Below, piece after piece: positions 170 to 64,000 of a stretch of DNA of 64,000 nucleotides. Each line of letters begins with the position of its first letter. Position 1 is the stretch's first letter. The stretch is from Euglena gracilis (lineage: Eukaryota), in the NCBI GenBank assembly GCA_039621445.1, contig CP154954.1:10063521-10127520 (forward strand), in the 5' to 3' direction. The translations under genes and the position numbers were made by a program. The notes under the pieces are model-generated. The model saw nothing but the letters and a program-made list of their open reading frames with translations. It did not search any database and was not told the DNA's origin.

Positions 170-974
170 GCGCACACAGGAACACGGCGACCGCGAGAGC
201 AGCATGCCAGAAGACTCCCGACAGGGAACACACCGGCATAGGGCAAGCCCGACACCGCTGCACCGGCATACACCACAACGCCTCACCGGGCCACCACCCA
301 CCACGCCCCACGCCACACGCACACCGCGAGGTGACACACCAGGACGGCGCACCATGCCTCCCACCCCAACGAACCCCTCCCTCCAACCACCCACCGCCCC
401 CCCCCCCCACGCAGCTGTAAATACTTAACCCTTGTGTACATAGCCCCTCACCGCAGGTACAAAAAATACAGTAGGTTGCGCCACTGGTCGGTGGAATCGG
501 TTCGCCCCACCACCGTTTTCTCTTTTTTCTTTTTTCCCACACCGGATGGTGGCTGCCGTATTATGACTGTTTCTCCATTCAGAGAAATCCTACGAGGAAC
601 GTGAGGTCAATTTTGTAACACGGTGAGACAGTGGTTTAGAGTATGAACTTGATCCTCTTCCTATGCATTCCCCCCCACATTTCAGAAGAAGTTGCAACAA
701 GTCAACGGTTATAAGGTCTGAACAGTCCACAACACAACACAAAAGAGGCCGCCCACAACGGAGGCCAGTTACATGGGGAGGGGCTTCAGGGTTGTTCGTG
801 TTAAAAACACGTTGTTTTAAAACACTCCTTTAAATGGGTTTGAATCAACCGAGCCCCGGGAACGCATAAAACCGCCGGTGTGCGTAGTGAACATGCGTGA
901 CAAACGGGGGCAAAGTGGTTCGCAGAAATGAAAGCAAGGGTTTCTTAACCATAATAACTCCCAAAACCGGCCAC

Positions 975-1670
975 CAGCTGTGGCCCCAAACTTTCCACCA
1001 CCGGCCCGAAAGTGGTCATCATTTGTGGCAAAAAAAATTCCCGCTAGCTGTGGCCCAAAAGCTGGCCGCCAGCTGTGGCCCAAAAGCGGCCACGACCCGT
1101 GGCACAAAAGTGGCCACCACCTGTGGCCCAAAGGTGGCCACCACCCGTGGCCCAAAACTGGCCACCACCTGTGGCCCAAAACTGGCCACCACCTACGGCC
1201 CAAAACTGGCCACCACCTACGGCCCAAAACTGGCCACCATCTGTGGGGCAACACTGGCCACCATCTGTGGCACAAAACTGGCCAGCACCTATGGCCCAAA
1301 ACTGGCCACCATCTGTGGCCCAAAACGGGCCACCATCTGTGGCCCAAAACTAGCCACCATCTGTGGCCCAAAACTGGCCACAATCTGTGGAACAAAACTG
1401 GCCACCATCTGTGGCACAAAACTGGCCACAATCTGTGGCCCAAAACTGGCCACCATCTGTGGCCCAAAACTGGCCACAATCTGTGGAACAAAACTGGCCA
1501 CCATCTGTGGCACAAAACTGGCCACAATCTGTGGCACAAAACTGGCCACCATCTGTTGCACAAAACTGGCCACCAATAATGGGAACCTCGTGTGGCCTAA
1601 AACTAGCCACCATTTGTGGGGCAAAACTGGCCATCATCTTCAAAATCCCTTTCACATTTGGCACACTGGC
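975..1670. repeat. 24-bp minisatellite (CTGTGGCCCAAAACTGGCCACCAY), roughly 25-29 copies
   Basis: Head-to-tail repeats with 8-aa periodicity in all overlapping ORFs. Degenerate relatives occur at ~2975-3130. Confidence 0.95.
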
Positions 1671-2599
1671 ACAATCTGAACAGGAGTTTTGCATAACTGA
1701 CCCAAGTTCCTCGGTTTCCTTTGTTCCGGGGCTATTTTGTATGCAGAAACAAAAGGAAAAGGCAACAAACCGACTTACAATCAATTCTGAAGCGACCAGC
1801 AGCGGCTAAGAAGCCCTAGCACTACGGCTAGAAGCCCTATCCGCCAGCGAATACTCCTGCAAACAGCACTTCACTTCGCCTTGTCCTTGGACTTGGCTTA
1901 TAAGTTGTACTTGAACTTGAAACTTGACAAATTGTACTTTATAAACCCAGCTTGTAACTAGAACCCCACCAGGGGTTCTCACTTCTCAACCATGTGACAT
2001 GTCGAAAAACTACACTTAGAACAGTCACTGGAATTAGGAATAAGTTCCGTTTTGCGATTTGAATGGTTCAAAACCGTTTAAATCTGGTATAAAACAGTTT
2101 CTTTGTATTTAACTCCTCCAAGGTGTTTAAATTCCAACCCTGAGGGGCTTGTTCACTTTCTAACTGAATTGGACATGTTGACTTGCCGGAGGAGGGGGAG
2201 GGGGGCCCAGGACGTAGGCTGGGGGGGGGGGGCCTGTTGGGTCGACCGACTCAGTTGGTTGACCCAACAGAGGGTGGGTCGATCTTCAGAGGATCGGTAA
2301 GGGTCGGCCGACCCAAAACGAACAACTGCGGTATTACTCGTCAAATATGCGCGAATGAGCAACACAATCCACACGTGCGTAAAGGGGATTTTAGAAACAC
2401 GAGGCCGGCCGAGGTCCGCATTCAGAACAAGTTTTCTGCTCTGAAAACGTTGCAGTGTTGGGTCAGCCGCCCCTGGGTCGACCGACCCTCCGAGGGGGGG
2501 TAGATCTGGCCTGGGGGGGGGTTGTGGGCCGACCCTAGGGTCGGCCCACGGTCGCCAAAGGTCGCCAAAGGTCGCCATGGTCGCCAAAGGTCGTGGGTG

Positions 2600-29400: not shown

Positions 29401-32400
29401 TTTGTTTCACAATGTGCAGGATGTTTGAACTGTCTCACAACAGACCAAGAACCGTTTTTACAGTATCTTTAGTTACAAAGTGATTTTCGAGTCAATACCC
29501 GCAGAAATGTGTTCGTGGAATAACTCCCCCCCAAATAATAACCCCCCGCCCCCTATACTGACCCCCCCCCCCCAAGTAATAACCCCCCCTGAGTTCGGCC
29601 GCCCAAATAATAACCCCCCCCCTCCGGCAGGTGTGAATGCAAAGGAAAAGAGATTCAAAAACCAACAGAATGCTGAAAATTTTTGAAAGGTGCTATTTTT
29701 GTATTTTTTTCCGTGATTTTTGAGTGGGTCCCCCGGACCCCTGGGGGCCCCTCCAGGGGTGGTGGATGGGGGGACCCCCCCACCCCTCGGTCTTAAAAAA
29801 ACCTCTGGCAGGCCTTAGATTCAATTGGCACCTGTGTGACCCCTCCCCTCAGGGATGTGGTGGGTGGATTTTTGGGGCTGCTGGATCCCCCCAGGGGAAG
29901 CCCCCCCCCAGGTCACCAAGTTTAGAGTTCAAAAAAACTCTGAGCCTGAAGCGGTGGACAGCCCAGGGTGGTCCGACCCCCCCATTAGCCCCCATGCACA
30001 GTGGAGATTACTGTGCAATATCCTGCTCCTTGGTGCTTGGCCAGGAGAGCCAGCACTTGGCCAGAGTCACTTGAGCACTTGGCCAGAGTGACTTGGTGAC
30101 CCCTGGGGGGGGGGGGGCGAGTGGGTATCCTCGCGGTGGGGGCGTCCTATTTGCGGTGCGAAGCCACGACCCGAACTGGACAAAACCGAAATCCTCGAGG
30201 TCCAACATGGAGGTTTCGTCCCTCCGGACCTGGGCGGTTTGCCCGGCAACCCCGCCGCCGTGGCCGTGCGAACGCTATTGTTGTCGCTGACCCTGGGGCT
30301 GGGTGCCCCCCCCCCTATGCCCTGCAAAAAAAATTGCAAAAATGGATAAAATATAAAAGAAAGTATGCCATTAAAGCACCCATTTTTCAAAAAAGCCCCA
30401 AAATGCCAAAAAGTGACCACTGGAGCCTGTGGAGGGTTTTTTTGAGTCGATTTTTGACTTCCAAAAATCCCCCCCCCCAAATGATAAACCCCCCAAATAA
30501 TAAACTCCCCCTGGACCCCGACTTCGAGTGTCCAAATAATAAACCGGGGGGGGAGGTTTATTATTTTGGGAGGTTTACTCTGTGTGAAGCAATTTTTCTG
30601 CATGAGGCTGTGAAAATTGTCGTTGCTGTTTTTTTTTTGGTCGGATGTGATGTTCTTTTAATGTGATTTCATGCATGTTCCCCCCCCCAAGGTTCTGCAC
30701 TTTTTTTTTGCATTTTCGTGCTTTTGTTTGAATTTCCCCAGTTTTTACATTTTGCACCTTTTTTTTCTAAAGCATTCTCCACAACTCTTCACAACTCTTC
30801 CTTTCAACCCATTTCCCCCCTTTGAAGTATTTTGTGATTCCTTTTTTGAGTTTTGGTGCATTTCGCAGTTTTGTTTTCTTGGCCGACGTGTGGTCGTGAC
30901 CATGTTTGTGCCATGCGTTCTTCTTGTTTACCAGGCCAATCTCCCCCTTCCTATTTGCGTTGCACAGCACCAGACCTATCCCTAACCCCAGATAGGAGTG
31001 TCGGGAGCCTATCGACGAGTTTTTTTTTGTTGTTGTCGAGCGCCTGAAGGGTGGCTAGATGGTAGCGGATTCTCTGTCGGAGGTGCAAAAATTGCGCAAA
31101 AATGGGGAAGAAATGCCGTCAAATTTTGGGTCAAAACTCGACTTTCGCACAATTGGCAGTTGTTCGCGGCGTTTTTTCAGTCAGGCCAGTTCTAGCCTTG
31201 AGTTGGGACCCTCCATGTGGGGAGAAGTGGGGGCAGCACGGAGCCTTTTTCAGCCCAAATTTTCCCAGCCTCTGAGTTGGACCCCCTGGGAGGGTTCGCC
31301 AAGGGTGAAGCATCCCCCCCATGTGGTTAGTTTCCACCAGTTTGGTGGACAAGCAGCGGAGGGGGGGTCTGCACAATGCTGATGTGATTCTGGCGGTTCG
31401 GCCAACGGTCATACCTCCGTCCCTTCCGCCCTGGAGTTGGTCCAATTGTTGCAGTCAGGCAAAGCCAACTGGACGTTGCCCGGGTTCCACTCATTAAATG
31501 TGCAGTTGGGAATGGAAGCCAGAGGAAACTCGAGGTTGATGGTTGATGGTTTTTATTTGAAAGAGAATCCTCCATCATCCATCACCCAAAGCTATAATTA
31601 TCCTTTTTGTGTTTTGAAAATTTTATTTTCTATTAGGGATTTCTTGTTTAGTTTAGGAATCCTGATGTTTGTGAAAATTGGTGAATGATTTTGCATCAAA
31701 GGTCCCCACTGCCTCAACAATTTTGCTCAGCCATTGCAATTTAGAGATACTGCTCATTTATTCTGCATACCTTAGTGCAGTTTTTTTTTTTGACATTTTC
31801 GAATTCCAAGTCCCGCCCCAAGTGCCTCTGATACGATACCCCATTGAACCCTGTTGAACCCAATGAACTTTGGCTTCTTTCTGCCCGTTCGGTTGAATTG
31901 TGGAGTTCAAGTCGACAGGATTTTGTCTAAACTGTGATGCCAACGCCCACTGTCAACGTTGTCCGCTACCGGTCACACTACCAGTACGGTTACCCCATGT
32001 GGATGTTCTCCATCATCGGCGAGCGGAACGAGCAAACCTTCGCCAAGAAGTACCCTCAAATGATGCAGTATTTCTGCAACTGTTTCCACTGGTGTGGCCC
32101 GTGCACTGGGATGTGGTATACACATTTGCCACCTGCGTCATGATTATAGATGACTCATGTCTTCAAATATTAGTCCGAATGTATCAACTTCATTTATGTA
32201 AGTATTTATGCAAGGTTCTTACAACACATGACAAAAATTGATGGCATGATCGCCTCAACTGTTCAGCAAACACATTTCTCGGTTGCCAGTTGCCCTGTCC
32301 TGCATTGCGGAAAAACAAACATTCTTTCTTCTTGTGAACAAAGCAGATGTATGTTTTTTTTAGACACGATTGGTTTGAAGGTTGGGGAGGTTCCTTCCGA

Positions 32401-35400: not shown

Positions 35401-35757
35401 TGGTCGTTGAACATGGTCGCTTCACCCATGAATCATGGGTGAAGCGCCGGTGTTGCAATTTCACAGTGCACGGAACCAGTGGGTTGCAAGTTTGCATTCT
35501 GTTATCTTTGCTTTGTTTCTCTTAGCCGACCGCTGTCCCCTCCGTGCCCCCTCTGCGCAGGTTTATTCAAACACGTGGACATCCAAAAGTACGGCAACAA
35601 GTCTCAGACCGACCACGTGTACCACGGCCGCCGAGGGGTCCAGGGCGTCGCTGAAGCTGCATACCCCCCTCCCCCCCCGAGGCGGGGGGGCCAGCCAGCC
35701 GCAGCCCTTTTCCACCCAGCCGCCTTTTCCATTCAGCCCAAGTTCTCCCAGCTCTGA
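22476..35757 (+). CDS. Putative type II membrane glycosyltransferase (GT-A/GT2-like); exons include 22476-22488(?), 23250-~23448, ~25238-25258, 25301-25344, 26139-26235, 27026-27066, 28627-~28664, ~29194-29250, 31439-31466, 31955-32091, 32423-32457, 32632-32675, 33122-33154, 33735-33811, 34233-34306, 35561-~35646 and a final piece ending 35757
   Basis: Signal anchor AAVLLLALFLLSLLLF. Spliced core reads TLRHALRSWHSHRLLQ...NVNIAMAVENLMEHATTELILILEKDWVLVE...GKANVVRYRS...CNCFHW...NWTNNPALFK...EGLFKHVD. ILEKD is a DxD-like strand end. The gene is well supported; the function is inferred, and 23450-25240 is unresolved. Confidence 0.7.
27690..27910. repeat. Degenerate heptamer array (CCTAATA/CCTCATA/CCTAAAA)n, intronic
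   Basis: Seen directly. Confidence 0.8.
28220..28372. repeat. (GCATTR)n hexamer microsatellite, intronic
   Basis: Seen directly. Confidence 0.9.
32458..32631 (+). other. Nonconventional intron
   Basis: GGC-CAGCCGCG ... CGCGGCTG-GGCCC. Join KYP|NIFS. Confidence 0.88.
33155..33734 (+). other. Nonconventional intron
   Basis: ACC-CAGTGGC ... GCCACTG-GCCGC. Join WTNNP|ALFK. Contains a degenerate (AATCAY)n array at ~33375-33490. Confidence 0.88.
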
Positions 35758-36383
35758 GCTGACCATGCTGAAAGCGCAGAGCCGGGTCGTTCCGCGACAC
35801 CCTGGAGGGGACAGAAAAGACGCAAAGCCTCACAGACGGTAACCCCCCGTCTTTTCCCTCCATTGTGGGTCTGCTTTGTGCAGTGCTGTTGATGCTTGTT
35901 GCCGCAGGAAGGTTCCGTATGGTTCTGGATGTTTGTGTTGCGCTTTGCCTCATTCCGTGGAGCTCTGTGAGATTATCTGCTCCCCCCAAACCTGCCCCTT
36001 CTCTTTACGAAAAACAGCCTGGCCTACCACGAAACCTCCCGCGAGGTCACGCCTCCTAACCGAAACTTTCACACCGTCTTCTCGGACGTGGCCCCACGCC
36101 GCCATCCGGTTGCCTTGCTTTCCTGTTCCGCGGTGCTCACTGCGGGCTGTCACACAGGAAGTGTGGCTTGCGTCCACCAGATCCCATTTGATGATCAGCC
36201 CACCCACCAGTGCGCATCACGTCTTTTGGCACCTCTTTTTCTTCACATTTCCTTTCCACTCTTGTGGTGTTTTGAATTTGAGGGCTGTGGCAACCCCCCC
36301 ATGACTTGGTTCCACCCTTGCCTTTGGCAGTGGCTGGGCATATTTCCAGTAAAAGCGCCGAGACAGTGGCGATCACGACAGCA

Positions 36384-47232: not shown

Positions 47233-47263
<31 letters not shown>

Positions 47264-48985: not shown

Positions 48986-51900
48986 ATGATGGACACCTGG
49001 GCCCGGTGGCAGGCTGCGGAGCGGGCCCCCGACCTGCGCCCCTCGCACTACGACCTGGCGCTGGCCCCGGCGGAGCAGGCGGCGATGCAGGAGATGCACC
49101 GCCGGTGTGCCGGCATGGCTGTACCATCAAGCGGGGGGGGGGGGAGGCAATCCTTTCTGCAGGATTTGACTGCAGAATTTGACCCCTCCCAAAATCCAAA
49201 GTCCTGAAAATCACAAATTTTCAGTTTGCATTTTTGCTCCCCCCGTATCAATACACTGCAACTGGAGTGAACAAGCAACCACACTTTCCAGATAGACTTG
49301 GGTGGGCGATGTGGGCGTCCGTTCCGTTTTTTTTTTCCCCAGGTCCGTGTGCATACTTGTAGTTAGTGTGACCGGAAAAAATGTTTCCGTGCGCCGCGAC
49401 TACCGCGGAAAATTTTTTTGAAACCGGCAGCGCCGCGGCAAAAATTTTTCTGTGCGCCGCGCATGCCGCGGCACTGGTTTATGTGTGCGCCACGACCGCC
49501 GTGGAAACTTTTGAAATTTGTGCCGCGACCACCATGGCAATTGTCTTTTTAAATTATGTGCCACATATACTTCCTTTCGGCCCCTTCCCCTGCCTGGCCT
49601 CTTTGATACTTTCTTGACCATGGTGCTGTGGGGCGGCCCCTTTGATGGTTCACAGGCACTGCGTCGGGGTAGACCCCCTGCCGAAGTTCCTGCAGGACGC
49701 CACGTTCCGGCACACTGTGTTCCGGCGCTACCTTGGCGCCCGCTCCTGGGACATCGACCGCGCGAGCCGCATGCTGGGCCGGTGTGTGCTAATCCTTGGC
49801 CCAGACATACAGCGCCGGACGAACACCCCAAAAGACGAACCCCCCCCAAGCGCCAAAATGTGCATTCTCCGAGTTGATACAGGTTTGATATTAGCACAAC
49901 CGAATTAGAAGTGCTTCCTTTCGTCCACCATTCACTTCCTCAATTCCATATTCTGGATATTTATTCCATACTAATTCCTATTCAGCTTTCATCTTTTGTT
50001 ATTTCCTTCGGCAACCTCCTTGGCCACCACATTATCAGTCAAGGATTGTTTGTCAAAATTCGACACCTCAAAAAACCCCAAAATGCACCCAGGGTTACCC
50101 TCTTTGACCCCAAATTTACCCCAAACCCCCCAAAATGACAATCCTGATGATAGTTCGCAAGAGTTCGCACACAAAAGTTGCAACAAGTCTGTTTCTGGGG
50201 TTTTTTCGCAAAAGAAAGAGAAACAACCAGTCACAAGGCTCCTTTCTTTACCCTCACCAGGGAGGGGTGGTCTGTTGTATGCTGTCTGTTGGCTTGTTAG
50301 GCTGAGGTGGTATTTCATCAGTTAGGGGGGGAGAATGGGCGGTTGTAAGTTACAACCCAAGGCTCCAACCGTGGCATTTTTTGGGAGGTTGCTGTGGTTG
50401 TGTGCATCCCTCCGTGAAATTTCAAGCCCCAGAGTGGCGGGATGTGCTGGTTGGGTTTGGGCTGCCGGGCTGTTGCTGGTGTTTGGGTTGATCTCCCCGG
50501 GGTCCACCTTTGTGGCACCATCTGTGCCCCTCCCCAAACCCACCCCACCCCACCAATGTTGCCCCCCCCCCTCCCACAGGACGCTGGCATGGCGGGCGGA
50601 GAACAAGATGGACACGCTGCCCTTCCTCCCGGCGCCCACCCACACCACTGCACCACCTCTTCTTCCACCCGCGGGGGGGGGGGGGCTTGAGGGCCACACC
50701 AGCTCTGTTTGAACATGACCTTTCACTTCAGACTGCACAGTGGATGTTGTCCGACCCCAGGGGAACATCCCTGTCGGGAACACTGGCAGTTTTTGTATTT
50801 TTTGCTTTTGCACCGTTTTGTATTTTTTTGCATATTGGAGTTCCTGTGTTCCACACCCACCGCTGGCCACTACCTGGCATTTTTTTTTGGCCAAGTTGCC
50901 GTGACCTGCCATTTGGCAAAGAAATGTCTCGTGCCCAAAAGCAAGTGAAAGGAAGTAGGAAGCAACCCTGCCATCTGATTTCGGGTGCAAGGACGTGCCC
51001 CCGATGGCTTCTCACGGGGATACCACCTGGACCCCCACAGCGATTTGTACGGCCGGGAGTTGCGGAGCGACCCGGTGACCGACCGCTTCCTGCAGCAGAT
51101 CCAGAAGGTCCGCCCAACGGATTGTTTGGCGGCGCTTGCCAACGACCCTCCTGAACGTCCAGGGTTTTGGAGTTGAAGTGGGTGATAGAAAAACAAGTTG
51201 TGTGTGTAAGCCTTGCCTGTTCTGCCGCTATCACCGCTCCATGTGTGTTTGCTTGCCAGGTGTACCACGGCACATGGCACATGTGGGACCGGGAGGGCAA
51301 CCCGGTGTTCATCGAGCGGACCGGCTACTCCGATCCTCACCTTGGGCTCGGCAGACCCCCACCCCCACCCCCACACAGCCGGTGCCATCCGTTTTCTGTT
51401 TCTTTCCCAATACAACCCGACATATTGATTTCCATTGGAATGCGGTCTTCTCGCATTTTGAAACCGGTTTTAGTCCATTCTGCAAGGCATCACTGTAAGC
51501 AGGGGCGCTCCCTCAAGAAGAAGTCTCACCTTTGGCTGACCCAATCCAAACTTCAGCATACCCTGAACCCACATCAAACCAAAACTCTACCTGAATCCCA
51601 AGCTTCCAACTGCTAATGTTACCACGCCCCCATTCCATGCCACCCCCCTACCCTACCTCTCCTGATCCTCTCCCGGGGTTGTATCATATTCAAACACACC
51701 TGATGGTGATGCGAACACCCATTTTTTTTGAGCAATGTCCATGGTACGTACACACATATATGCACACATATATACGACAGAGGGGATGCTGACACACACA
51801 GTTTTCCAGGCTTCTGCTAAAGGTTCACAGTGACGCCAGAATTTCTGGAATGAAATCAGCCAAAAAGGCACATTAGAAACACGTAGCGCTGGAATAATTT

Positions 51901-54900: not shown

Positions 54901-56515
54901 GACGGTGGCGTGGGCCCAGTGGCCCGCTGATTTCCACTCAACTAACAACACGAGAAACCCTCAACCTGTCAAAATGCCTGGTGCCGCACTTTCCGAAAGA
55001 CGAGTTGATGTTCATGTGCTTTTTCCATTTCGATCAACAAAACCAAGAGAATTGGAGACCACCAATTGTTTTGATGCATGCCTTCTGTTCAACGGTTAAT
55101 ATTTTTTTTCATGAATGCAGCGTGGGCAAACTTGCGGTTTTGTGCCGTATGTTTGTTCCCTTTCTTGTTTGTCTTCGACTGTTGCAACATTTGCTTTGCG
55201 GAGCACTGCCCACAACATTATCAGCCCCCTTCTCGACCAGCGGACGCGGGAAAAGGTGCGCATCCTGGGCAGCAACTACCACCTGGCCCTCGAGAAGGTC
55301 ATTGCTCCCGCCCAGTTGCCTCTCAGGAGGCACCCTTTTGGCCAGACTGCCTCCACACCGTTGCCATACAGAACACCTCCATCCCAATCACCAGCTTGTT
55401 GGTGCTACCACACTGAGTCTCTAAACTGTCCACCTGGAGGGATTGCTATCTTTGCCTCCACAATTGAGGAACAAAACTCGGAGCCATCCTTCTGTAAGAA
55501 GACACTTGCTTTTAAATAATCATAATAATTTAAAGGTCACATACACTGTTTAACCATTTCATTAAGAAAACTCAGGAAATTAATCAGCATTACCCCTGAT
55601 TTTTATCATATAATGTCATGTTGCGTACATCTGTTGCTCGGTGAGCTTTTCTTAATGAGCTGGACAAAGTCTGTAAGCCACGATATTCTTTTTCCGCTTG
55701 AAGACCCAGCCATGTGTCACTTTGAGCTTTGAGGTTCAGGGATGCGGTGAAAACAGGAAAGTTCACAGACTAAATGCCTAAATCTTACAGGGTGGGCAAA
55801 ATTGGGGGGGAAATTGGAAACTTCATGCCGGAGGGTGAAACTGGTTAGAAAAAAATACTAAAAATAACTACTAAAACTACACTGTTATGGTGAAATTTTG
55901 GTATTTGACCAAAATTTGATTGAAAATGGCCCGAAAATGACAAAAAATGTCTATTTTGGCAAAGATTTACCTTTTGTGGCATTTTTGAGGCAAAATAGCC
56001 AGATTTTGTGTTCAGTGCCGCAATGAAAAAACAGGGGGGGGGTCGACAATAAACGGTCGAATAATTTTTTTTTGTTGCAAAAAACCATTTTTTTTCAGGT
56101 TCAAAATTTTCCGAGCCTATTTTACGATATTTTTTTTGCCGTAATTTTTGTCTACCATCTAATTAATACTCACTTGAACTCTCGCCCTAACCCTTATTTT
56201 TTCCAGAAGCTTAAAATAAACCCTCGATTTCCTGATCACCCCTTCGGCTTAAAGTCTGTTTAACTTTTTTTGATTTATATAATTTCATTTTTTCTTTTTT
56301 TATACCACATTCATTTTAATACGATGAGAAAATAATGACAGATGACAGGCTAATTCATTTTTGAATGGTTTTTTATTGTAGTCTACATTTGGTAATATTT
56401 TATACACAAACATTTCTGTTTGAAAATTTCCAACAGTTTTTGTGGCTTCTGGTGCCTCCTGCCACCGATCTTCCTTGGGGGCGAGTGCGAGTGCCCCGGG
56501 GGCTGTGTGCCATGA
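48986..56515 (+). CDS. Sec14/CRAL-TRIO lipid-binding protein; exons approx. 48986-49112, 49664-49777, 50578-50636, 51009-51107, 51260-51332, 53072-53216, 53609-53689, 54430-54469, 54856-54913, 55214-55320, 56467-56515 (possible extra last exon 58907-58968)
   Basis: CRAL-TRIO-N-like FRRYLGARSWDIDRASRML..TLAWRAEN; WDREGNPVFIERTG; FTYVLDLKG; HYPET..AFVVNAP..VAWNIISPLLDQRTREKVRILG; QLPIFLGGECECPGGC. Mixed GT-AG and paired introns. Confidence 0.92.
51932..52351. mobile_element. Intronic MITE, family C (TAAACCCCCCCCCCAAATATAAAACCCCCC TIRs; terminal TA may be the TSD)
   Basis: ~30-bp TIRs and repeated GGGGGTTTTATATTTGGG subterminal motifs. Related partial ends at ~29520-29625 and ~30470-30577. Confidence 0.8.
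52776..52985. repeat. Degenerate 10/12-bp tandem array (GTGGCACGGT), intronic; relatives at ~61975-62037 and ~62312-62371
   Basis: Seen directly. Confidence 0.85.
54914..55213 (+). other. Nonconventional intron
   Basis: GCC-CAGTG ... CACTG-CCCAC. Join VAW|NII. Confidence 0.9.
55321..56466 (+). other. Nonconventional intron
   Basis: CAGGAGGCACC/GGTGCCTCCTG form a perfect 11-bp stem. Join QLP|IFLGG. Confidence 0.92.
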
Positions 56516-59500
56516 GGTGCCTTACCCCAGGGAGGGGCAAAATATGCACCGTGCAGTTTTTGCAGTTTTTTTTTGCAGTTTTCACGTTTTGGGGTTTTTG
56601 CAGTTTTTTTTTGCAGTTTTTTGCAGTTTTTTGCAGCTTTTTTTCTGAAAAAACTGCACACGTGCAGTTTTTTGCAGTTTTTTTTTATTCCAGTTTTGAG
56701 GAAACCTGAGGTGCTCATTTTTTGGTGCTCTGCGCCTTGTTACGCTGGATTATATTGTTTGAAGGATGTTTCTCAGGAAAAGTCTCTCTGAAAAAATCTC
56801 TTGATGAGTTGTGTTGTCTACAGTAATCCCACCAGTTGTCTTGCCCCCAACTTTCTTGCCAACTGCCTTGCCTCTCGACACAACAGAAGTTGTTGTTGCC
56901 ACGATTTCAAAAAACACATTGTTTCGGTGACAACGCCACCATTACTCCCCAACCAAAATTGCTCCATCTCCATCTTGTGCATGTGGTGACAGATGTCACG
57001 ATGCTTATTTTGGCAATCGTCATTTGCACACTCCTGAGCAGATTCAACTAATTATTTGGGATTCCAGGGGACTAAATCCAAAAACTGTTTTTTTTTGTGC
57101 AAATTTTGGTTGAAGTTGGAGTTGAAGATTGCGAGATTCGTGGAGACGCAAAGGAGCACACGCTCCTGAAGAAGATTGGGTCTTGTCCCAAGCATTTTGG
57201 CCAAACATCACACAAGCCAAATGCTTCAAAGAAGTCTTTTTTATTTGCAAGAAACTCCCAGACCATTTGGCAATCTCCTAAAGACAGTGTTCAAAGTTTG
57301 TGATGGTTGTTGTAGATTTTTTTTTAGTTTTGTAGGTTTTTTGCATCGTGACATGGGTGAAGTTCACCAGGTGATGGACCGAAAGTTCCAAAACTGAACA
57401 TCCCATGCAAGAATTAAAAGCATAGAAAATTTCTGCATATGGGCATGTGCATTTTTTCCATATTTAGCCGTTTTTTATGGGCAAGGCCGTCACAAGCTTT
57501 GGTGCAGGAAAACCAGTGTGAACCAGCAACCAAAACAAACACATGACTTGCATTTCAATGCATGAAAACCCATGTACAGTGTACCTTGATCGATTGCTTT
57601 CATTTTTATTGTCATCAGCTCCAAAGCTGTGCAAAAGTTAGGTGAATTGGGGCGTTCTCGTGTGGTCACAATTTACGTTGTTTTGCATATGCACACCATT
57701 TCAGCTTGTTTATTGTTATTTTTTGTTGATGTGCAGTTTTTTTGCAGTTTTTTGCAGTTTTTTTTTGCAGTTTTTTTTGCAGTGCAGTTTTTGACCTGCC
57801 CGTGTGCAGTTTTTGCCCCCCCCCCCCCCTGCTTACCCCCTTTCACTGTACAAAAGCCTCAGCCACCCTGTTGGCTTGATGTCTCGCACACCCCCCTCTC
57901 ATCCACAGCATCTTTTTTGGCTGACCAGGATTGGCACTGCAAAAGCAAGGACGGATATGCAAGTTTCACAATTGGCCAGAATTTTTGCAGGAATGTAAAG
58001 AGTGATTTCGAACCTTTGGCTATCAGTCATTTTACAACTCTAAAAGGCAGTGAATGCTGGAGAGATTGTCATTCCACATCTCGAGAGGTGAGTCTCTGAA
58101 TTTCCTCATTTTTCCAACAAACACCCAATAAAAAAACCCCCGAACAAAAACACCCCAAAAAAACACCATAAAAAAACACAAAAATTCAATGTCCTTCCCT
58201 CCCCCAAAAAATGTTTCCTCCAAACTCAAAACAGCAACTCGACAGGTGGGGATGAAAACAGCCCCGCAACCAAAACCAAGTTCCGAGGTAGTTGCCCCCC
58301 CCCCCCGGGGCAAACCTGTTTGACGGCCAACACAGCCCATGGCCACCCCAACAAATTCCCCTCTGGGCCGAAAAACCAGCCCCCCCCACCTCTCGGTGTG
58401 ACCTCTGGTTTCAAACGGAAGAGCAATTTCCCGAACCCCCATTTGTGGTCAAAGTTTGGGGGGAAAAAACACAAAAAATCACACATTTCCCCAAAAATTC
58501 ATGTCTCCATTTCCCCAAAAAATGTTTCTCAGTGCTTCTTCGACGTGGGTGGGGATGGGGAATCGCAGACTCCGGCAAGAGTGATGTTGCCGACAGGGGG
58601 GGGGGGGCATTTTCGACCTGATTATTGTGGTGCTCCAGCCCTCCGAAAATGGTCCTCTTCAGGGGAATTTGGGGTCTGGGCCAAAAAACCGAGTCAGTCA
58701 CTCGGTCACTCTGAAAAACCAGCCCCCCCCCCCCGGGGGGGGGTAGGCCAGTGTGTCGGGCGTTGCATGGACCCCAACGTTGTGCATTCCACCGGAACCT
58801 GGAATACGAGTACCTACGGTGGGTTGCGTCCACACCTCTGGTGGGAGGCGCTGGGGAGGGGGGGGGTTGGCCGACTTCCAGTCTGCTTGGCCCTAAGGCG
58901 CCCCGGATGCCCAGCGTCAGGGCGTGCCCATCTGCCCTGCCCACCCGGAGCCGTCGCTGTCCCTGTGATGCCCCACGTGACCCCTTTGCCGCCACACCGG
59001 CTGCCACTGTGGCGGCCCCCATTGGCCCCGGGGCAACCCGTTTTCCCTTCCAGGGAGCTGCAAACCACGGACGATTTTTCCATTTTTGTTTCGTCCCCCC
59101 CCCCCCCCCGGCTTTTTATAACTGATTTTGTGGCCTCTCCAAGTGAAACCCTTTGCATGCTTCTGACTGGTTTGTGCATAACATGGTGTTCCCCCAGCAA
59201 TTTTTTTGTGATAATGTTTTCCTCAAAGTAGACGGCACGCAAAACACAAAATCACCAAAAATACAAATAGATTTAAAACTGCGAGTTCAAGTTTATGCAT
59301 TTTGAGGGGGGCCGGGTGTGACAACGTTTTCGTGCCCCTGTCGCTTTCCCTTGTAGGCCCTCGTCCCTTGCCTCGCCCCAAACCTTCGAAAGGCGACCCC
59401 ATGTGCAGCGCATGCCTCAGGTTGCTGGGGCAGCCAACTCTGGCCGGCACTGGCCCCTACCCTCATTGCTGATGACGCAGAATTCAGCTGAGTCAGTGTT

Positions 59501-62500
59501 CACTCATTTGTGCCGACCCCAACCCAAATCCAACCCCCTGAAACCCTAACCCCCGAAACACCTGACCCCCCCCCCCCAAATAAGATCCCCTGTGATTTTC
59601 AGAAAAGCTCCAAAGCAACCCCCACTAAAACTATTAAAATCCCAAAATGGGTGACATTCTGACCTTTTATTTTTTCTGTGTCAAATTTGCCATTTTTTTT
59701 CCGGATGATTTTTGTTCATTGCAACGTGTTTGTTTTGTTCCTGTTTGTTTTGGACCTATTTGCAAGGCTTTTTTTCGGCTGAAACCTTCAGAAAAAATTA
59801 AAAAAGAAACCCCCAATTAAGACCCCAATATGGTCCAAAGAATCACCCGATTTGACTTTTGGAGGGGATTTTATGTCTTGGGCCAACCTTCTTTCACGAT
59901 ACTTGGCGACAGCGGCATACAGGATAGGCTCCTCCCCGCGAAGAGGGGCTGCTACAGCCCGCCCAAATTGCACCGCTGCAACAATGCCAGCTCAGTCAGC
60001 TCACGCCTTTTTCGTTGCTGGGCCAGCCAAAACGCGCTTTGCATCAAAATTTTTTTGATGCAAAGCGCCTGAAGTTTTTTGAAAAGGTGGTCAAAAATTG
60101 TTAATCACAATGTGATTTTGAGGGGTTTGTGGGAGGGGGGTTTGGTGTTGCTGCTTGCTGTTCCTTGCCACAGTGCTTGGTCGCCCTTTTTCCTTTCCTG
60201 TGTTTTTTGTTGTTGTTTTGGCTCCTCCCCCTCCAGCACCCTCACCCTGCTCGTTGGCCTAAATTTTCAGCCCTAGCCCAGCAACTCTTAAAGAGAATCT
60301 GTATGGTTGGGTGGGTCGAGCACACAAAACCCATTTTTTTTCCAGTGACCGGTGCGAAGCGCCGGAATTTTTTTGGGACCCCCAAAAATGGCCAAAAATG
60401 CCCGTTTTTGGCCATTTTTGGGAATTTTGGAACAAAAGCAGCCAAAAACCTATTAAAAACCTCATTTCCACCTCTTTCATCAATTTTTTTTCCAGTTGGG
60501 GGGACCCCCGACCCCCCCCCCCCCCGGGGGAGGGGGGTCTAGGTAGTCCATTTTTTCCAGTGCCTAGCCGATTGGCTAGCCAGTAGCCAGTAGCCAGTAG
60601 CCAGTACCCCCCCCCCCCCCCGGAGGTCCTTAAGCAAAAGCCTGGCAGGCACCCCCCCCCCCCCGGGGTCGGATGGGGTGCTATGGGGCGCCTGCCCCTA
60701 GCACCTCCCCTGTGGGGCACCCGACTAAGCACAAGCCTGCAACTGATATGTGTTTGTGCACGCATTTGCGCCGCAAACAAATTTGTGTGTGTGTGCCGAG
60801 GCTCGCACAAACATACTGTTTTGAAGTGAATGTTTAAATGTTGTGCCCATAAACAAAATTTGTTTGTGCGCGCAAATGTACGCACCAACAGGCCTATCAC
60901 GTCCAAAAAACCATGTAGGGTTGTGGTAATCACCAGTGTCCTTCAACATGAGCATGTTGCTGTTGCACTCCATGAACTTCCCTCTTTTTTTTCCCACTCC
61001 TGGGGGAGGTCCCAGGGGTTTCGAGGTGCGGAGCCCATTTTTCTAGACCTCCCAAAGACATCATTTTCTGCCAAAGTCCTAGGGGTACACCCCCAAAAAC
61101 AGAATTTTGCTCATTTTTTTTTGCGTTCTCCTGTCACTGTGTTTTCAAACCTCCCAGAGCCACACAGCCGAAACAAAAGTATTTATTTATTTTTTTTATT
61201 TAATTTGTGCATATGCGCAAACCAACACGAATAAATGCGAATCCAGCCGCCTAAGAAAGCCCCCCTTTTTTAGGCATTTTCATCTGGGTGGCTCATTGGC
61301 CCCCTAAGACCATTGGTGTCTACCTCGATGTCCTGAAGTTTGCCCCTTGGTCCACTGTGCTTTCATCCCAGACTTGAACGGCATTTGCAACATTCCATCC
61401 GCCCCCACCCCTACCTTTTCCCAGGCAAGCCTCTCAACAGAATGCTCTCCTCTCTGTCGCTGCCCTGCGGTGCCGATGTGCGGGTTGAGTGGACGGGCTC
61501 CAGAGCGGCTCGGACGGCGTGCAGGCGATTGTCGTGTTTAGCCGAAGGTTGGGGTGGCATACCTTCCTTGGATGGGTGTGCTTCTTATGGTTGCATTGGA
61601 TTGCATACAAGCATAGGAATATAGGAATATAGGAAATATAGGAAATATGGGACAAAATAGTGCGCAGGCTCGGCGACTGTATTTTTGAATTGGTCTGTCA
61701 CACGCTATCGTCAAGTGCTTTTACCAGAGACTGATTTCCAGAAATAAATACAGATATTCAGGCCAACAATCAGCAATTTCCCCCCCAGTTTCTTGTCTTT
61801 TTTTTCCCCTGGGAATTTCATTCCTGAAGTTTAGTTGTTGTGGTCGTTGGGATTTGGCTGTTTGGAGGCACCATTGGCCGAGTCGGCCCGGCAGACCGGG
61901 GCCAACCATGGCCGACTTTTCAGACCCGTAGGTGGGGTCACGACCAGGACCGGCGGGGGGGGGGGAGGATGCTGCCACACCACGTGCACCACGTGCAGCA
62001 CCATGTGCACCGCGTGGCGCAGCGTGTGCACCGTGTGGGAAATTTCACTCGTTTCCAGTATTCCTCTAATTTTTCTTTCATTTTGGCCACCTTTAACCGC
62101 CTCTAACCTCCTTGTTCCATCGTCGGCTACTTGTTGCCATTTTTTTTTGGTGTTTTTTTCTGCCTTATTTGGTGTCTTTTTCCATTTGAATCATTTTTTT
62201 TCATGCTACTGTTGGTAATTTTATGGTGATTGTTTTGCAATTTTAACAATATTTCAATTTTGAACCTTTTTTAGCTTTTTTTTTTTTGCCTGTTGCGGTG
62301 GTTGCAGATAACGTGGCACGGAGTGCAGCACATGGTGCACTTGCGGTGCCATGGGGTGCACACGGTGCCGCGAACCATTTGTCCGCCAAATTGTTGGAAG
62401 TGAGTGTGAAGCCTTTCTCCCCTGTTCCTTTCTACCCTACCCCTTGGTGCAAGGACTCTCCCTCTCCCCATTCTCTGATTTCTTGTTTGCACTGCAAGTG

Positions 62501-63149
62501 AATCATAAAGGGAATGAGCGCCTGCTGCGGTTCGAAAACAGAATAAAGTGTAGCTGAAGATCAATGAAGTTAAAATAATGGCATTGTTGATCAGGAAGAG
62601 CCTCCACAGGGCGATGGAATTTCCACAGACAATGTGTCAAGTCTTTTTACAGCCAGCACCTGCACCCCAGCTGGGCTGCAGACCTACCTTTTGTCTGAGG
62701 TTCTTTTTTTTTTTGATTGGCATGGTGCAATTTGCATGTGATTTGTAAACCAGCAAGACAGTGCTGGTTGAAGCCATTCTTTGGTGGTAATATGTGCTAA
62801 TAGAGTGGGAACACAAGAACAGCAAGTTGGAATGGCGCGCGATTGCTCAGATGGAGCAAGTTTCGAAGGATGCAAAATGGCGAAATTGGTTTCAAACCCA
62901 AATGGCCAAAATTGCTTGAAAGTTGTTGGAAAAATGGCTCACCGTGGAAAAAATGGCAAAATTGCAAGACGGGCTAAAGCTGGTCCTCTAGGGATGAATT
63001 GGCTGTTGAAGAGATGACAGCCTTCGAAGACAATGTAGCTTCTTATTCCTTCCTTTAAATCTTTTTTTTCAGAATTTTTGCATGAAAATACTGCAGTTGA
63101 TTTTCTCGTTATTGAAGCTGGAAAAACAGTGCTGGCTGGACCTGGGAGA

Positions 63150-63445
63150 CAGGTGTTTTTTTTTTAGCCTTGGACCCCGGGGGGGGGGAAGGGCAGGGTG
63201 GGTGGGTCCAGACGAGCCTCCCCCCCCCGGGGGGGTTGCCCAGGGGGGGGGGATAGTTTTTGGCGCCAAAGGCGCCGAATTTTTTTTGAAAGGTGCTATT
63301 TTTAGCATTTTCCGCGATTTTTGGCCTTTTCAGGGAAAAGTGGGTTGGGTCTCCGAGACCCCCCCGGGGGGGGGGGGGGGGGGGGCCCCCAGGGGGGGGG
63401 GGGTGGGGGGGGGCCCCCCCTCCCCCGGTCTTAAAAAAACCCCTG
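63150..63445. mobile_element. hAT-like MITE with CAG...CTG ends and a perfect 8-bp TSD (CTGGGAGA)
   Basis: CTGGGAGA at 63142-63149 and 63446-63453. Ends are CAGGTGTTTTTTTTTTAG and CTTAAAAAAACCCCTG. Confidence 0.88.
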
Positions 63446-64000
63446 CTGGGAGAGGGGGCTTCCGCCATCCGACTGGCAGGTGTTGACCAGAAAAAAAAAA
63501 CGGTGCTGGCTTGCTGGACCTGGGCGGGGGGGGGGGGGAGGGAGGGGTCCGGCTTGAGAAATTCCCTGGAATGGGGGCATAGGTTTACGATGTGGCTGAA
63601 GGCATCAAAAAGTCAAGTAATTGAATTTCCGAATATTCAAAATATTGTGTGACAAACAAGAGTAAAAAATATGTCCCATTGTGTGACAAAAATTCCCAGA
63701 GCCCTGACCGCAAAAAAATGTATGAGAATGCCACAAATATCATTGTGTGGCTTTGAATCATGATTCTTCTGAATTGACATACCCTTCTCAACCTCTGGCC
63801 AATTATTTGCCGGGCCAGGGCCGGCCATGGCTAGAACACCAAATTCGGAATGAACCATGGACCTATTAGGAGCCATTAGGGACCACATTTGCACAGTGGC
63901 CTGGGGCTGCTGAAGCTCTTGCAGTCCCATCACCGCCAGTTGGCCATCCCAGTCGGCAGGGCTTTTGCCGATAGCTAAGGTGCATTTATTACCATTCGAA

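What the first reader, a model, noticed from the sequence alone, without database searches (positions are those of the whole stretch)
63142..63453. hAT-type MITE geometry matches the nonconventional intron consensus (3+5 nt = 8-bp TSD): candidate introner system
Seen: this MITE starts CAG, ends CTG and has a perfect 8-bp TSD. Seen: roughly 20 introns here splice in frame when cut 3 nt before and 5 nt after a terminal stem that is often CAG...CTG. Known: hAT elements make 8-bp TSDs, and a MITE origin for euglenid introns has been suggested. Inference: excising 3 nt + element + 5 nt removes exactly one TSD equivalent, so such an insertion in an exon would be a ready-made, scar-free intron. Similar TTAAAAAAANCCTG-type ends recur near 10861, 16705, 16838, 23202, 26066, 29793 and 60630.
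Basis: partly seen in the sequence, partly recalled or inferred. Interest (0 to 1): 0.85.

Follow-up and report, generated by a model that had tools for sequence, protein, structure and literature searches.

The report
Transposon ends match Euglena intron rule
A 296-base jumping-gene relic with an 8-base flanking duplication sits inside an intron of a euglenid-type gene, and its ends fit that group's unusual splicing rule so exactly that such insertions could be introns from birth: an idea already in print in outline, here given exact arithmetic and one likely recent example.

Summary
Observation confirmed. 63150-63445 is a 296-bp element that starts CAGG and ends CCTG. It has imperfect terminal inverted repeats and a perfect 8-bp duplication, CTGGGAGA (63142-63149 and 63446-63453).

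Interpretation partly supported. This MITE is not an intron. RNA reads place it inside a 2,390-nt nonconventional intron (61519-63908). The "3 nt + CAG...CTG + 5 nt" geometry is already published as the tested Euglena splicing code (PMC12501133). The MITE-origin idea and the "TSD-like" repeats are also in print. No paper I found equates 3+5 with the 8-bp duplication of CAG...CTG (hAT-like) transposons.

In the window, CAG...CTG elements with inverted repeats and 8-bp duplications occur at 5 loci, against about 1 in shifted-register controls. One RNA-verified intron (56521-57831) is a whole 1.3-kb high-copy inverted-repeat element flanked by an 8-nt direct repeat, and a DNA run holds the form without it.

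Against the idea, that element fits the ruler one base short (7, not 8). Four older introns show no duplication remnant. No hAT transposase was found, and no genome was available.

Verdict: a new variant of a known hypothesis, and testable.

The parts
63142..63149 (.). Left copy of the 8-bp target-site duplication, CTGGGAGA
   Evidence: Read directly. Flanks printed identical.
63150..63445 (.). MITE body, 296 bp, CAGGTG...CCCCTG. It is rich in G and C runs and has no coding capacity.
   Evidence: The ORFs over it have no Pfam family. DNA-run depth at 63312 is 288,807, against 39-92 for single-copy contigs. This suggests high copy number but is not a count.
63150..63180 (+). 5' terminal inverted repeat (CAGGTGTTTTTTTTTTTAGCC..GGACCCCGGGG)
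   Evidence: [quoted passage not shown] Gapped alignment of about 30 nt.
63415..63445 (+). 3' terminal inverted repeat (..CCCCCGGTCTTAAAAAAACCCCTG)
63446..63453 (.). Right copy of the 8-bp target-site duplication, CTGGGAGA
61519..63908 (+). Host intron, 2,390 nt, nonconventional: GTG-CAGGCG...GGCCTG-GGGCT|G. The MITE is nested in it.
   Evidence: Joint 61518->63909 in 36+33 RNA reads of X21 and one X15 contig; 0 in DNA run X1. It fits the N3-CAG..CTG-N5|R code.
61443..61518 (+). First coding stretch (from an ATG) of the gene that holds the host intron. The exon's true start is not mapped.
   Evidence: Sequence. RNA depth of about 6 in bin 61351-61884. The ATG and the upstream AG acceptor are my reading, not shown by reads.
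63909..63955 (+). Next exon of that gene. The transcript continues beyond the window.
   Evidence: Joint at 63909, and a loose end behind 63955 in 70 X21 reads.
56521..57831 (+). Intron 11 of the upstream CRAL-TRIO gene, in its 3'UTR: 1,311 nt skipped in RNA. It is one whole TIR element, 56528-57831: CAGGGAGGGGCAAAATATGCAC ... GTGCAGTTTTTG(C)14TG, with TGCAG(T)n subterminal repeats.
   Evidence: Joint 56520->57832 in 17+26 X21 reads and in X15 and X16 contigs, with 'both' = 8. The same joint is in DNA run X1 (1 contig, depth 52.9, 22 letters on the short side). X1 depth inside is 2.0-3.2e5, against 250-370 in the neighbouring bins. Sequence; TIR.
56521..56528 (.). Left copy of the 8-nt direct repeat CTTACCCC at intron 11. 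Its last C is also the C of the element's CAG, so by TIR symmetry the TSD is 7 nt.
   Evidence: A loose end of X15 at 56528 shows that homology to another copy begins at that C.
57832..57839 (.). Right copy of the direct repeat CTTACCCC
24538..24751 (.). Second MITE, an unrelated family: 214 bp, CAGTATG...CATACTG, TIR about 26-30 nt with 1 mismatch, flanked by TATATATA / TATATATA.
   Evidence: The TSD is low-complexity, and the next base also matches the element's C.
35641..35804 (.). Third MITE-like element: 164 bp, CAGGGCGTCGC...GCGACACCCTG, flanks GAGGGGTC / GAGGGGAC (7 of 8).
787..2142 (.). Candidate 1,356-bp CAGGGTTG...CAACCCTG element with an exact 8-bp flanking repeat, AGGGGCTT.
   Evidence: The ungapped TIR is only 8 nt, so this is weaker.
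29628..29807 (+). Shorter relative of the MITE: CAGGTGTG...GGTCTTAAAAAAACCTCTG. It has no TSD (CCCTCCGG / GCAGGCCT).
   Evidence: blastn gives 86% over 44 nt and 82% over 68 nt. Sequence; alignment.
55321..56466 (+). Intron 10, nonconventional: TCT-CAGGAGGCACC...GGTGCCTCCTG-CCACC|G, with a perfect 11-bp terminal stem.
   Evidence: Joint 55318->56465 (+2) in 47+56 X21 reads. Code fit.
54914..55213 (+). Intron 9, nonconventional: GCC-CAGTG...CACTG-CCCAC|A.
   Evidence: Joint in 46+43 X21 reads. Code fit.
50638..51002 (+). Intron 3, nonconventional, with the same 3/5 geometry but CAC...GTG.
   Evidence: Joint 50634->51000 (+3) in 10+26 X21 reads.

Best explanation
What it is: 63150-63445 is a non-autonomous DNA transposon (MITE) of a high-copy family. 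It was inserted by a transposase that makes an 8-bp staggered cut, which produced the duplication CTGGGAGA. It is hAT-like in its CAGG...CCTG termini and its 8-bp TSD. It sits, and is passively removed, inside the 2.4-kb first nonconventional intron of an expressed gene. It is not itself an intron here.

How the link to introns would work: in RNA the inverted ends of such an element can pair, CAG with CTG. The euglenid nonconventional splicing machinery, whose factors are unknown, measures 3 nt upstream of the CAG and 5 nt downstream of the CTG. Because 3 + 5 equals the 8-bp TSD, both cuts fall at the same position in the two TSD copies. Ligation then restores the pre-insertion mRNA exactly. 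Any CAG...CTG element with an 8-bp TSD that lands in a transcribed exon is therefore a working intron from the moment it inserts.

Shown here:
- the MITE's anatomy and its place inside an intron;
- its fit to the published code;
- a recurrent class of CAG...CTG elements with 8-bp TSDs in this window;
- one intron that is a whole TIR element, flanked by a direct repeat and absent from a DNA allele.

Inferred:
- that the transposase is of the hAT superfamily;
- that this MITE would be spliced if it lay in an exon;
- that such insertions are a major source of nonconventional introns.
For: 1. Anatomy: exact 8-bp TSD, CAG...CTG ends, 11 of 12 TIR matches.

2. High copy: X1 depth at 63312 is 288,807, against 39-92 for single-copy contigs. 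Nine related ends lie in the window, and one partial copy.

3. Class enrichment: CAG..CTG pairs with at least 9 of 12 TIR matches and at least 7 of 8 flank identity number 5 loci at the element boundary, against 2, 0, 0, 1, 2, 1 with shifted flanks. Of all 64 terminal trinucleotides only one scores higher, and that is a single repeat family. Summed over all trinucleotides the counts are 55 against 49.8, so there is no general excess.

4. Code: PMC12501133 (abstract, sections 5, 8, 11 and discussion passages read) shows by knock-in that a 3-nt spacer before CAG is strict and that 5-6 nt after CTG works. The MITE with its TSD satisfies N3-CAG..CTG-N5|R.

5. In the 16 kb with RNA, 3 of 7 non-GT-AG introns fit the full code and 1 more fits as CAC..GTG. 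Their ends are TIR-like: 11 of 11 for intron 10.

6. Intron 56521-57831 is a complete TIR element of very high DNA depth, flanked by an 8-nt direct repeat. It is skipped in 43 X21 reads and in the X15 and X16 contigs. The joined form is also in DNA run X1 at single-copy-like depth (52.9), while X1 shows 0 for the other 11 RNA joints.

7. The X1 contig of depth 52.9 carries 57885 T and 57907 G. RNA shows both alleles: T in 53 of 77 reads and G in 26 of 44. RNA depth inside the intron is at most 1.6.

8. Independent precedent: a newly gained nonconventional intron in E. agilis gapC has 8-nt direct repeats (PMC4770533, section 7 read).
Against: - The MITE itself is intronic and not shown to be spliced. 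RNA depth over it is about 0.2.
- The best example, intron 11, has CAG...CTG plus 7 nt. The observed skip of 1,311 means N3+N4 or N2+N5, and the base after the cut is a pyrimidine. It therefore departs from both the 8-bp TSD and the published code by one base. A homopolymer miscount in the assembly is possible but not shown.
- The RNA joint reads could come largely from the intron-less allele. That the filled allele is spliced rests on allele linkage, which I could not see read by read.
- The X1 joint has only 22 letters on its short side. A 5'-truncated retrocopy is not formally excluded.
- Four older code-conforming introns show no TSD remnant: 11 of 32 positions, against 6-14 of 32 at shifted registers.
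- 2 of the 7 RNA-listed nonconventional introns, plus a 3'UTR intron inferred from loose ends, do not fit the 3/5 geometry.
- No hAT transposase domain in any of 177 ORFs of at least 100 aa.
- The recalled hAT target consensus nTnnnnAn is not met at position 7 by CTGGGAGA.
- The MFE fold of the MITE RNA does not pair its termini.
- Other superfamilies also make 8-bp TSDs. Merlin does so in E. gracilis (PMC8101967, passages read).
Confidence: 0.55

Rival explanations
1. Ordinary intronic MITE and coincidence. The element is a plain transposon relic in an intron. CAG...CTG in nonconventional introns is a splicing signal, CAG...CTG on the transposon is a transposase signal, and 3+5=8 is a numerical accident. 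New nonconventional introns arise by other routes, for example double-strand-break repair that leaves short repeats.
For: - The MITE is not an intron.
- There is no TSD remnant in 4 older introns.
- Intron 11 is one base off.
- The published code tolerates N5-6, so the ruler is not strictly 8.
- Milanowski et al. 2016 read the 8-nt repeat of a new gapC intron as a break-repair mark.
Against: - Intron 11 is bounded end to end by a TIR element of very high copy number. It is not random filler DNA.
- CAG...CTG elements are the only recurrent class in the window with TIRs and 8-bp TSDs.
- Two independent recent introns carry 8-nt repeats.
Confidence: 0.25
2. The model is right but the superfamily is wrong. 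The elements are mobilised by a non-hAT transposase that also makes 8-bp (or 7-9 bp) duplications, such as Merlin, P or Mutator-like.
For: - Merlin families with 8-bp TSDs are reported in E. gracilis (PMC8101967).
- Intron 11 looks like a 7-bp TSD.
- No hAT domain was found in the window.
- The TSDs do not fit the recalled hAT target consensus.
Against: - Merlin TIRs end in 5'-GG. Here the duplication abuts CAG/CTG directly.
- CAGGG and CAGGT termini resemble the recalled hAT terminal consensus YARNG (Ac-like). This is my recollection and was not tested here.
Confidence: 0.15
3. Reverse direction. The MITE-like families descend from excised nonconventional introns (full-length RNA circles) that were copied back into DNA, so introns made the repeats and not the other way round.
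For: - Nonconventional introns are released as full-length circles (stated in PMC11282704, passage read).
- A reverse-transcriptase element lies in the window.
Against: - A reinserted intron copy would carry its old 3+5 flanking bases and would not duplicate the new target.
- The MITE, 24538-24751 and 787-2142 each have a different exact 8-bp flanking repeat, as staggered-cut DNA transposition gives.
Confidence: 0.04
4. Not a mobile element. A chance 8-mer repeat around a G/C-run-rich, partly palindromic stretch, or an assembly artefact in low-complexity DNA.
For: - The body is dominated by G and C homopolymers, and RNA reads 'seem cut' at 63353-63430.
- Without a TIR filter, exact 8-mer repeats around CAG..CTG are not enriched.
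Against: - TIR plus an exact TSD at the boundary gives 2 observed, against 0-1 at six shifted registers.
- A related copy lies at 29628-29807 and related ends at seven more sites.
- DNA depth over the core is very high.
Confidence: 0.03

Closest known systems
Euglenid nonconventional introns and their tested code 5'-N3CDG-/-CH'GN5-6|R (Nomura et al. 2025, PMC12501133)
   Same: The MITE plus its TSD carries the whole signature. 3 of the 7 RNA-supported non-GT-AG introns here fit it exactly, including the intron that hosts the MITE.
   Different: The MITE is not shown to be spliced. In the passages I read, the paper names MITE-like elements only as a possible source and does not relate the 3+5 spacers to a TSD length or to a transposon superfamily.
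MITE-origin hypothesis for nonconventional introns (Milanowski et al. 2014, PMC3935182; review PMC11282704, 2024)
   Same: Inverted repeats at intron ends, direct 'TSD-like' repeats at junctions, and insertion as the source of new introns.
   Different: In 2014 no transposon was known in euglenids. Here concrete TIR/TSD elements are seen beside the introns, and the equality of spacer sum and TSD length is made explicit.
Newly gained gapC intron 4 of E. agilis ACOI 323 with 8-nt direct repeats (Milanowski et al. 2016, PMC4770533)
   Same: A strain-specific nonconventional intron with an 8-nt junction repeat, like 56521-57831 here.
   Different: It was interpreted as a mark of double-strand-break repair, and no TE identity was reported. 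Here the intron is a whole high-copy TIR element. Its Table S3 could not be read because supplements were closed.
Introners of Micromonas and Aureococcus (Huff, Zilberman and Roy 2016; seen only in reference lists, content recalled)
   Same: DNA transposons that become introns at insertion because the element plus one TSD copy is what is removed.
   Different: Those are removed by the spliceosome at GT/AG sites built partly from the TSD. Here removal would be by the non-GT-AG, stem-measuring euglenid system.
hAT-superfamily MITEs, and Ds elements spliced from maize transcripts (Giroux et al. 1994, seen in the reference list of PMC3935182; content recalled)
   Same: 8-bp TSD, CAGGG-type termini, short non-coding body, subterminal repeats (in the 56528-57831 element).
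   Different: No transposase partner is known here. Ds splicing uses cryptic spliceosomal sites and is usually imprecise.
Merlin transposons of E. gracilis (PMC8101967)
   Same: 8-bp TSDs in the same kind of organism.
   Different: Merlin TIRs end in GG. These end in CAG/CTG directly against the duplication.

Membership tests
hAT-superfamily non-autonomous element (MITE) | 8-bp target-site duplication directly flanking the termini | tested here: met
   CTGGGAGA at 63142-63149 and 63446-63453, exactly 8 nt. Also 8 of 8 at 24538-24751 and 787-2142, and 7 of 8 at 35641-35804.
hAT-superfamily non-autonomous element (MITE) | Short terminal inverted repeats with the terminal consensus YARNG (consensus recalled, not from a call) | tested here: inconclusive
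   The 5' end is CAGGT and the 3' end (reverse complement) is CAGGG, so the fifth base fits on one end only. TIR 11 of 12.
hAT-superfamily non-autonomous element (MITE) | Small, non-coding, many copies | tested here: met
   296 bp. The ORFs over it have no family. DNA-run depth over the core is thousands of times the single-copy depth, which is not a true copy count. Related ends at 8 other sites.
hAT-superfamily non-autonomous element (MITE) | Autonomous partner encoding a hAT transposase (BED finger, DDE core, hATC dimerisation domain) with the same TIRs | not testable with these tools
   No whole genome is held. Within the window, 0 of 177 ORFs of at least 100 aa hit such a domain. 389 of 539 shorter ORFs were not scanned.
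hAT-superfamily non-autonomous element (MITE) | Target preference nTnnnnAn (recalled) | tested here: not met
   CTGGGAGA has T at position 2 but G at position 7. TATATATA, AGGGGCTT and CTTACCCC do not fit either. n is 4, and this is a preference, not a rule.
Euglenid nonconventional intron | Sequence signature N3-CDG...CH'G-N5-6 followed by a purine, with pairing ends | tested here: met
   AGA-CAG...CTG-CTGGG|A (against the code read).
Euglenid nonconventional intron | Actually removed from RNA at those positions | tested here: inconclusive
   No joint at the MITE's borders is among the 15 joints shown; 240 more were not shown. RNA depth over it is about 0.2, because the host intron is removed.
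Introner (transposon family that creates introns) | An intron that is a whole element copy, removed together with one TSD equivalent | tested here: inconclusive
   56521-57831 is a whole TIR element plus 7 nt, with an 8-nt direct repeat. It is precisely skipped in RNA. It belongs to a different family from the MITE and is one base off the ruler.
Introner (transposon family that creates introns) | Presence/absence polymorphism of the intron in DNA | tested here: met
   The joined form is in DNA run X1 (1 contig, depth 52.9, short side 22 nt), with 0 for the other 11 RNA joints. Caveats are given in the report.
Introner (transposon family that creates introns) | Many near-identical copies serving as introns in unrelated genes | not testable with these tools
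   No genome. Only 16 kb could be laid with RNA.
Merlin superfamily | TIRs with terminal 5'-GG and 8-9 bp TSD | tested here: not met
   The TSD length fits, but the termini are CAG/CTG against the duplication (definition from PMC8101967).

The most novel reading that the evidence does not exclude
The euglenid nonconventional splicing system is a ruler co-adapted to one class of DNA transposon. Its fixed 3-nt and 5-nt spacers exist because they add up to the 8-bp duplication made by CAG...CTG (hAT-like) elements. Every such insertion into a transcript is then born as a scar-free intron. On this reading most of the roughly 70% nonconventional introns of Euglena are old insertions of this kind, and the process is still running, as strain-polymorphic TE-introns such as 56521-57831 would show.
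Probability: 0.33. Interest if true: 0.85.

Novelty: new variant of a known kind. Interest (0 to 1): 0.62.

Why it matters
The origin of euglenid nonconventional introns and the logic of their non-GT-AG splicing are open questions. The machinery is unknown, and the 3-nt and 5-nt spacers were established only in 2025, without a rationale.

If the spacer sum equals the duplication left by a resident transposon class, three things follow:
- the spacer rule is explained;
- it becomes clear how a genome can carry about 70% nonconventional introns without insertional damage;
- the MITE-origin hypothesis becomes a set of sharp tests: the TSD spectrum, an excess at sliding distance 8, and knock-ins with 7-, 8- or 9-bp flanks.

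It would also be a second, non-spliceosomal route to 'introners'. If the match is a coincidence, the finding is an ordinary intronic MITE.

Tried and rejected
- Pfam on 150 short ORFs (45-99 aa) from 1-14.5 kb: 0 families at E<=0.001. The other 389 short ORFs were not scanned.
- Sequencing-run index: no RNA holder listed. RNA raw-read runs came only through the species label. One of them (X21) was laid, along with two small 'RNA?' contig runs.
- Metagenome scans for more copies: the 19-nt 3' end gave 0 hits. A 20-nt core gave 10 loci, all matching only over the 20-28 nt seed in unrelated DNA of 29-55% GC.
- blastn of the 56521-57839 element against the window: no other copy.
- MFE fold of the MITE RNA: the termini are not paired, the G/C runs dominate, and z = -2.2. 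Uninformative.
- Rfam: 0 matches.
Table S3 there, and the SI figures and datasets of PMC12501133 (the sliding-distance distribution), may bear directly on the 8-nt prediction and were not seen.
- Reconstructed empty site of the MITE against the nearby partial duplicate at 63496-63532: the alignment crosses the junction by only 5 G's. Too weak to use.
- 54619->54749, a DNA-level indel inside intron 8: it has no CAG...CTG or TIR features and was dropped from the argument.
Full report
**The element.**
- At 63142-63453 the sequence reads CTGGGAGA | CAGGTGTTTTTTTTTTTAGCC ... GGTCTTAAAAAAACCCCTG | CTGGGAGA.
- The two 8-mers are identical. The repeat is exactly 8 nt, because the neighbouring bases differ on both sides.
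- The 296-bp body (63150-63445) starts CAG and ends CTG. Its first 12 nt match the reverse complement of its last 12 at 11 positions, and with gaps the inverted repeat runs about 30 nt.
- The interior is mostly G and C runs around a T-rich core.
- The ORFs that cross it have no Pfam family.

**Is it more than chance?**
- I took all 951 CAG...CTG pairs 40-3500 nt apart with at least 9 of 12 TIR matches. Two have an exact 8-mer repeat at the element boundary and 5 have at least 7 of 8. With both flanks shifted outward by 1-6 nt, the counts for at least 7 of 8 are 2, 0, 0, 1, 2 and 1.
- I repeated this for all 64 terminal trinucleotides. CAG gives 5 independent loci against a control mean of 1.0. 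Only AAC scores higher (6), and those hits all belong to one local repeat family. Summed over all trinucleotides the counts are 55 against 49.8, so the excess is specific to CAG.
- Without the TIR filter there is no excess: 3 exact repeats, against 2, 6 and 3 at shifts 1-3.
- The five loci are:
 - this MITE;
 - 24538-24751 (214 bp, near-perfect TIR of about 26-30 nt, flanks TATATATA/TATATATA);
 - 35641-35804 (164 bp, flanks 7 of 8);
 - 3156-4687;
 - 18422-19018.
- 787-2142 has an exact flanking repeat, AGGGGCTT, but only an 8-nt ungapped TIR.
- These elements are unrelated in sequence apart from their CAG(G)...(C)CTG tips.

**The family.**
- A shorter relative lies at 29628-29807 (86% over 44 nt and 82% over 68 nt). 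It has no preserved TSD.
- Ends built as C-run/G-run..GTC..TTAAAAA..CCTG occur at 63445, 29807, 26080, 23217, 16719, 16851, 10861(-), 60642 and, as the MITE's own 5' end, 63150(-).
- The short end motif is over-represented: 29 matches against 13.3 +/- 3.8 expected.
- In DNA run X1 the summed contig depth at 63312 is 288,807, against 39-92 for the single-copy contigs listed. The tool warns that this is not a copy number, so I take it only as 'highly repeated'.
- No further copies could be fetched. No genome is held, and two metagenome scans gave nothing related.

**Where it sits.**
- I laid one RNA raw-read run (X21), two small 'RNA?' contig runs (X15, X16) and one DNA run (X1) on 48001-64000.
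- 15 joints were shown and 240 more were not. Of the 15, 12 are supported by X21 reads. Five of these are GT-AG and 7 are not.
- Exons from about 49.1 to 56.5 kb belong to a CRAL-TRIO/SEC14-type gene on the + strand:
 - PF00650, E=1.9e-4 on exon 55214-55318;
 - PF00650, E=4.9e-5 on ORF 55115-55516;
 - weaker colinear hits on two other exons.
- Its stop codon lies in exon 56465-56520.
- A second gene has an ATG at 61443 (my reading). Its intron 61519-63908 is supported by 36+33 X21 reads and one X15 contig.
- The MITE lies inside that intron. So the MITE is a passenger in an intron, not an intron itself, and RNA depth over it is about 0.2.

**The 3+5 geometry.**
- This is already established knowledge.
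- Milanowski et al. placed CAG at +4..+6 and CTG at -8..-6 (PMC3935182, passages; PMC11282704, passages).
- Nomura et al. 2025 (PMC12501133; abstract, sections 5, 8, 11 and discussion passages read) showed by knock-in that the 3-nt donor spacer is strict and that the acceptor spacer works at 5-6 nt. They wrote the code as 5'-N3CDG-/-CH'GN5-6|R.
- Applied to the 7 non-GT-AG introns listed:
 - introns 54914-55213, 55321-56466 and 61519-63908 fit the code fully;
 - 50638-51002 has the same geometry with CAC...GTG;
 - 56521-57831 fits only as N3+N4;
 - 51338-53077 and 54471-54856 do not fit.
- An eighth intron in the 3'UTR (about 57925-58943), inferred only from loose ends, does not fit either.

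**The inference.**
- The MITE plus its TSD reads AGA-CAG...CTG-CTGGG|A. It meets every element of the published code, including the purine.
- Cutting there removes the element plus 8 nt and leaves one CTGGGAGA.
- The logic is sound: cuts at the same position in two TSD copies always restore the target, and 3+5 equals the TSD length of this element class.
- The idea that a transposon plus one TSD copy makes a scar-free intron is known from spliceosomal introners. That is my recollection; the papers appear only in reference lists I saw.
- MITE origin, 'TIR' and 'TSD-like' wording for euglenid introns are in print (PMC3935182, PMC11282704, PMC12501133, PMC12621601).
- I found no statement that the spacer sum equals an 8-bp TSD, and none that names a superfamily. 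The searches, and the passages, held no paper linking hAT to these introns.

**An actual case in the window.**
- The joint 56520->57832 skips 1,311 nt and has 8 letters that fit either side: CTTACCCC at 56521-56528 and at 57832-57839.
[quoted passage not shown] TGCAG(T)n repeats lie under both ends.
- X1 depth inside it is 2.0-3.2e5, against 250-370 in the bins beside it.
- It lies 7 nt past the stop codon, in the 3'UTR.
- The joined form occurs in 17+26 X21 reads, in the X15 and X16 contigs, and in one X1 DNA contig at depth 52.9. X1 shows 0 for the other 11 RNA joints, and X1 contigs span exon-intron borders, so X1 behaves as DNA.
- A contig of that same depth carries T at 57885 and G at 57907, and X1 shows no other allele there.
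- RNA shows both alleles: T in 53 of 77 reads, G in 26 of 44.
- RNA depth within the intron is at most 1.6.
- In X15 and X16 the joint contig runs 53 letters to the right, up to the variant. I take this as the absence of a competing intron-retaining path. That inference assumes unitig-like contigs.
- The simplest reading is a recent insertion of a high-copy TIR element into a transcribed exon, present in the window's haplotype, absent from another, and removed from RNA so that the empty-site sequence is restored.
- This parallels the 8-nt repeat at the strain-specific gapC intron of E. agilis (PMC4770533, section 7).

**What weakens that case.**
- By TIR symmetry the element starts at the C of CAG (56528). 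An X15 loose end shows that homology with another copy begins at that base.
- The duplication is then 7 nt, with an eighth matching base by chance. The skip equals element + 7, not + 8.
- The base after an N3/N4 cut is a pyrimidine.
- Either the event was atypical or the C-run is miscounted in the assembly. I could not tell which.
- The joint reads may come mostly from the intron-less allele.
- The X1 joint has only 22 letters on its short side.
- A 5'-truncated retrocopy is unlikely, because the T/G allele is the majority expressed allele. It is not excluded.

- For the four introns that sit in the N3/N5 register, the 8-mer before the CAG and the 8-mer after the CTG agree at 11 of 32 positions. 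Registers shifted by -4..+4 give 6-14 of 32.
- There is no remnant of a duplication in these older introns.
- With n = 4 this neither supports nor refutes the model.

**hAT or not.**
- In favour:
 - 8-bp TSDs at three to four elements;
 - CAGGG/CAGGT tips, which resemble the hAT terminal consensus as I recall it;
 - subterminal repeats in the 1.3-kb element.
- Against or open:
 - no transposase (0 of 177 ORFs of at least 100 aa; the only mobile-element domains are those of a LINE at 40-46 kb);
 - the recalled target consensus is not met;
 - Merlin elements with 8-bp TSDs exist in E. gracilis, though with GG termini.
- I therefore call it hAT-like, not hAT.

**Verdict.**
- The element is an ordinary intronic MITE in what it does at this locus.
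- The proposed link is a sharpened, testable form of a published hypothesis. In this window it is supported by a recurrent CAG...CTG/8-bp-TSD element class and by one probable TE-born, polymorphic intron.
- It is weakened by a one-base misfit and by the lack of genome-wide data.

Noticed in passing
window 36353-45662, with 36385-37922 and 46165-47799: A GC-rich (0.64-0.73) non-LTR retrotransposon with Exo_endo_phos, RVT_1, RNase_H and a weak zf-RVT hit in long + strand ORFs. It is bracketed by two (CCA)n arrays of about 1.5 kb each (510 and 539 copies).
   Followed up: partly
window 6699-6883 / 7182-7367, and 2599-2836: 185-bp inverted repeats (95%) around a core of about 300 bp, with a third copy 4 kb upstream. 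They are built from CCCCCCCTAAATGACCC / GGGTCATCTAGGGGG units. This is a different TIR element whose tips are not CAG/CTG.
   Followed up: no
window 960-1639: A tandem array with shifted copies 77-89% alike, giving an open proline-rich frame with a Cornifin hit (E=3.8e-9). It lies inside the candidate element 787-2142.
   Followed up: no
window 54619-54751: A DNA-level form lacking about 130 nt inside intron 8, seen in 7 X1 contigs and 2 X15 contigs, with TCGGT in its place in one X1 record. It has no CAG...CTG or TIR features.
   Followed up: partly
window 51020, 54439, 55284, 57885, 57907: Exonic variants seen in 50-84% of RNA reads and fixed in the X1 contigs. Two haplotypes or recent paralogues of the CRAL-TRIO gene are expressed together.
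   Followed up: partly
window 57921-58943: A further 3'UTR intron of about 1,016 nt, inferred only from contig loose ends, with two alternative junctions. It does not fit the N3/N5 code.
   Followed up: partly
window 63122-63146 and 63496-63524: The MITE's left flank (AAAAACAGTGCTGGCTGGACCTGGG) recurs 374 nt downstream, so the MITE seems to have landed in one copy of a local duplicate or of another repeat.
   Followed up: partly
window 59457-59498: Probable 3' end of the CRAL-TRIO transcript. X21 molecule ends cluster at 59457, and an X16 contig runs from 59498 into A's and adapter-like sequence. The tool notes that contigs cannot prove an end.
   Followed up: no
window 49104-54428: All five GT-AG introns of the gene begin GTG/GTA/GTC. 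Four of the five have G|GT...AG|G-type junction repeats that let the cut slide by 1-4 nt. In all, 9 of the 12 RNA-supported introns are 'slidable'.
   Followed up: no
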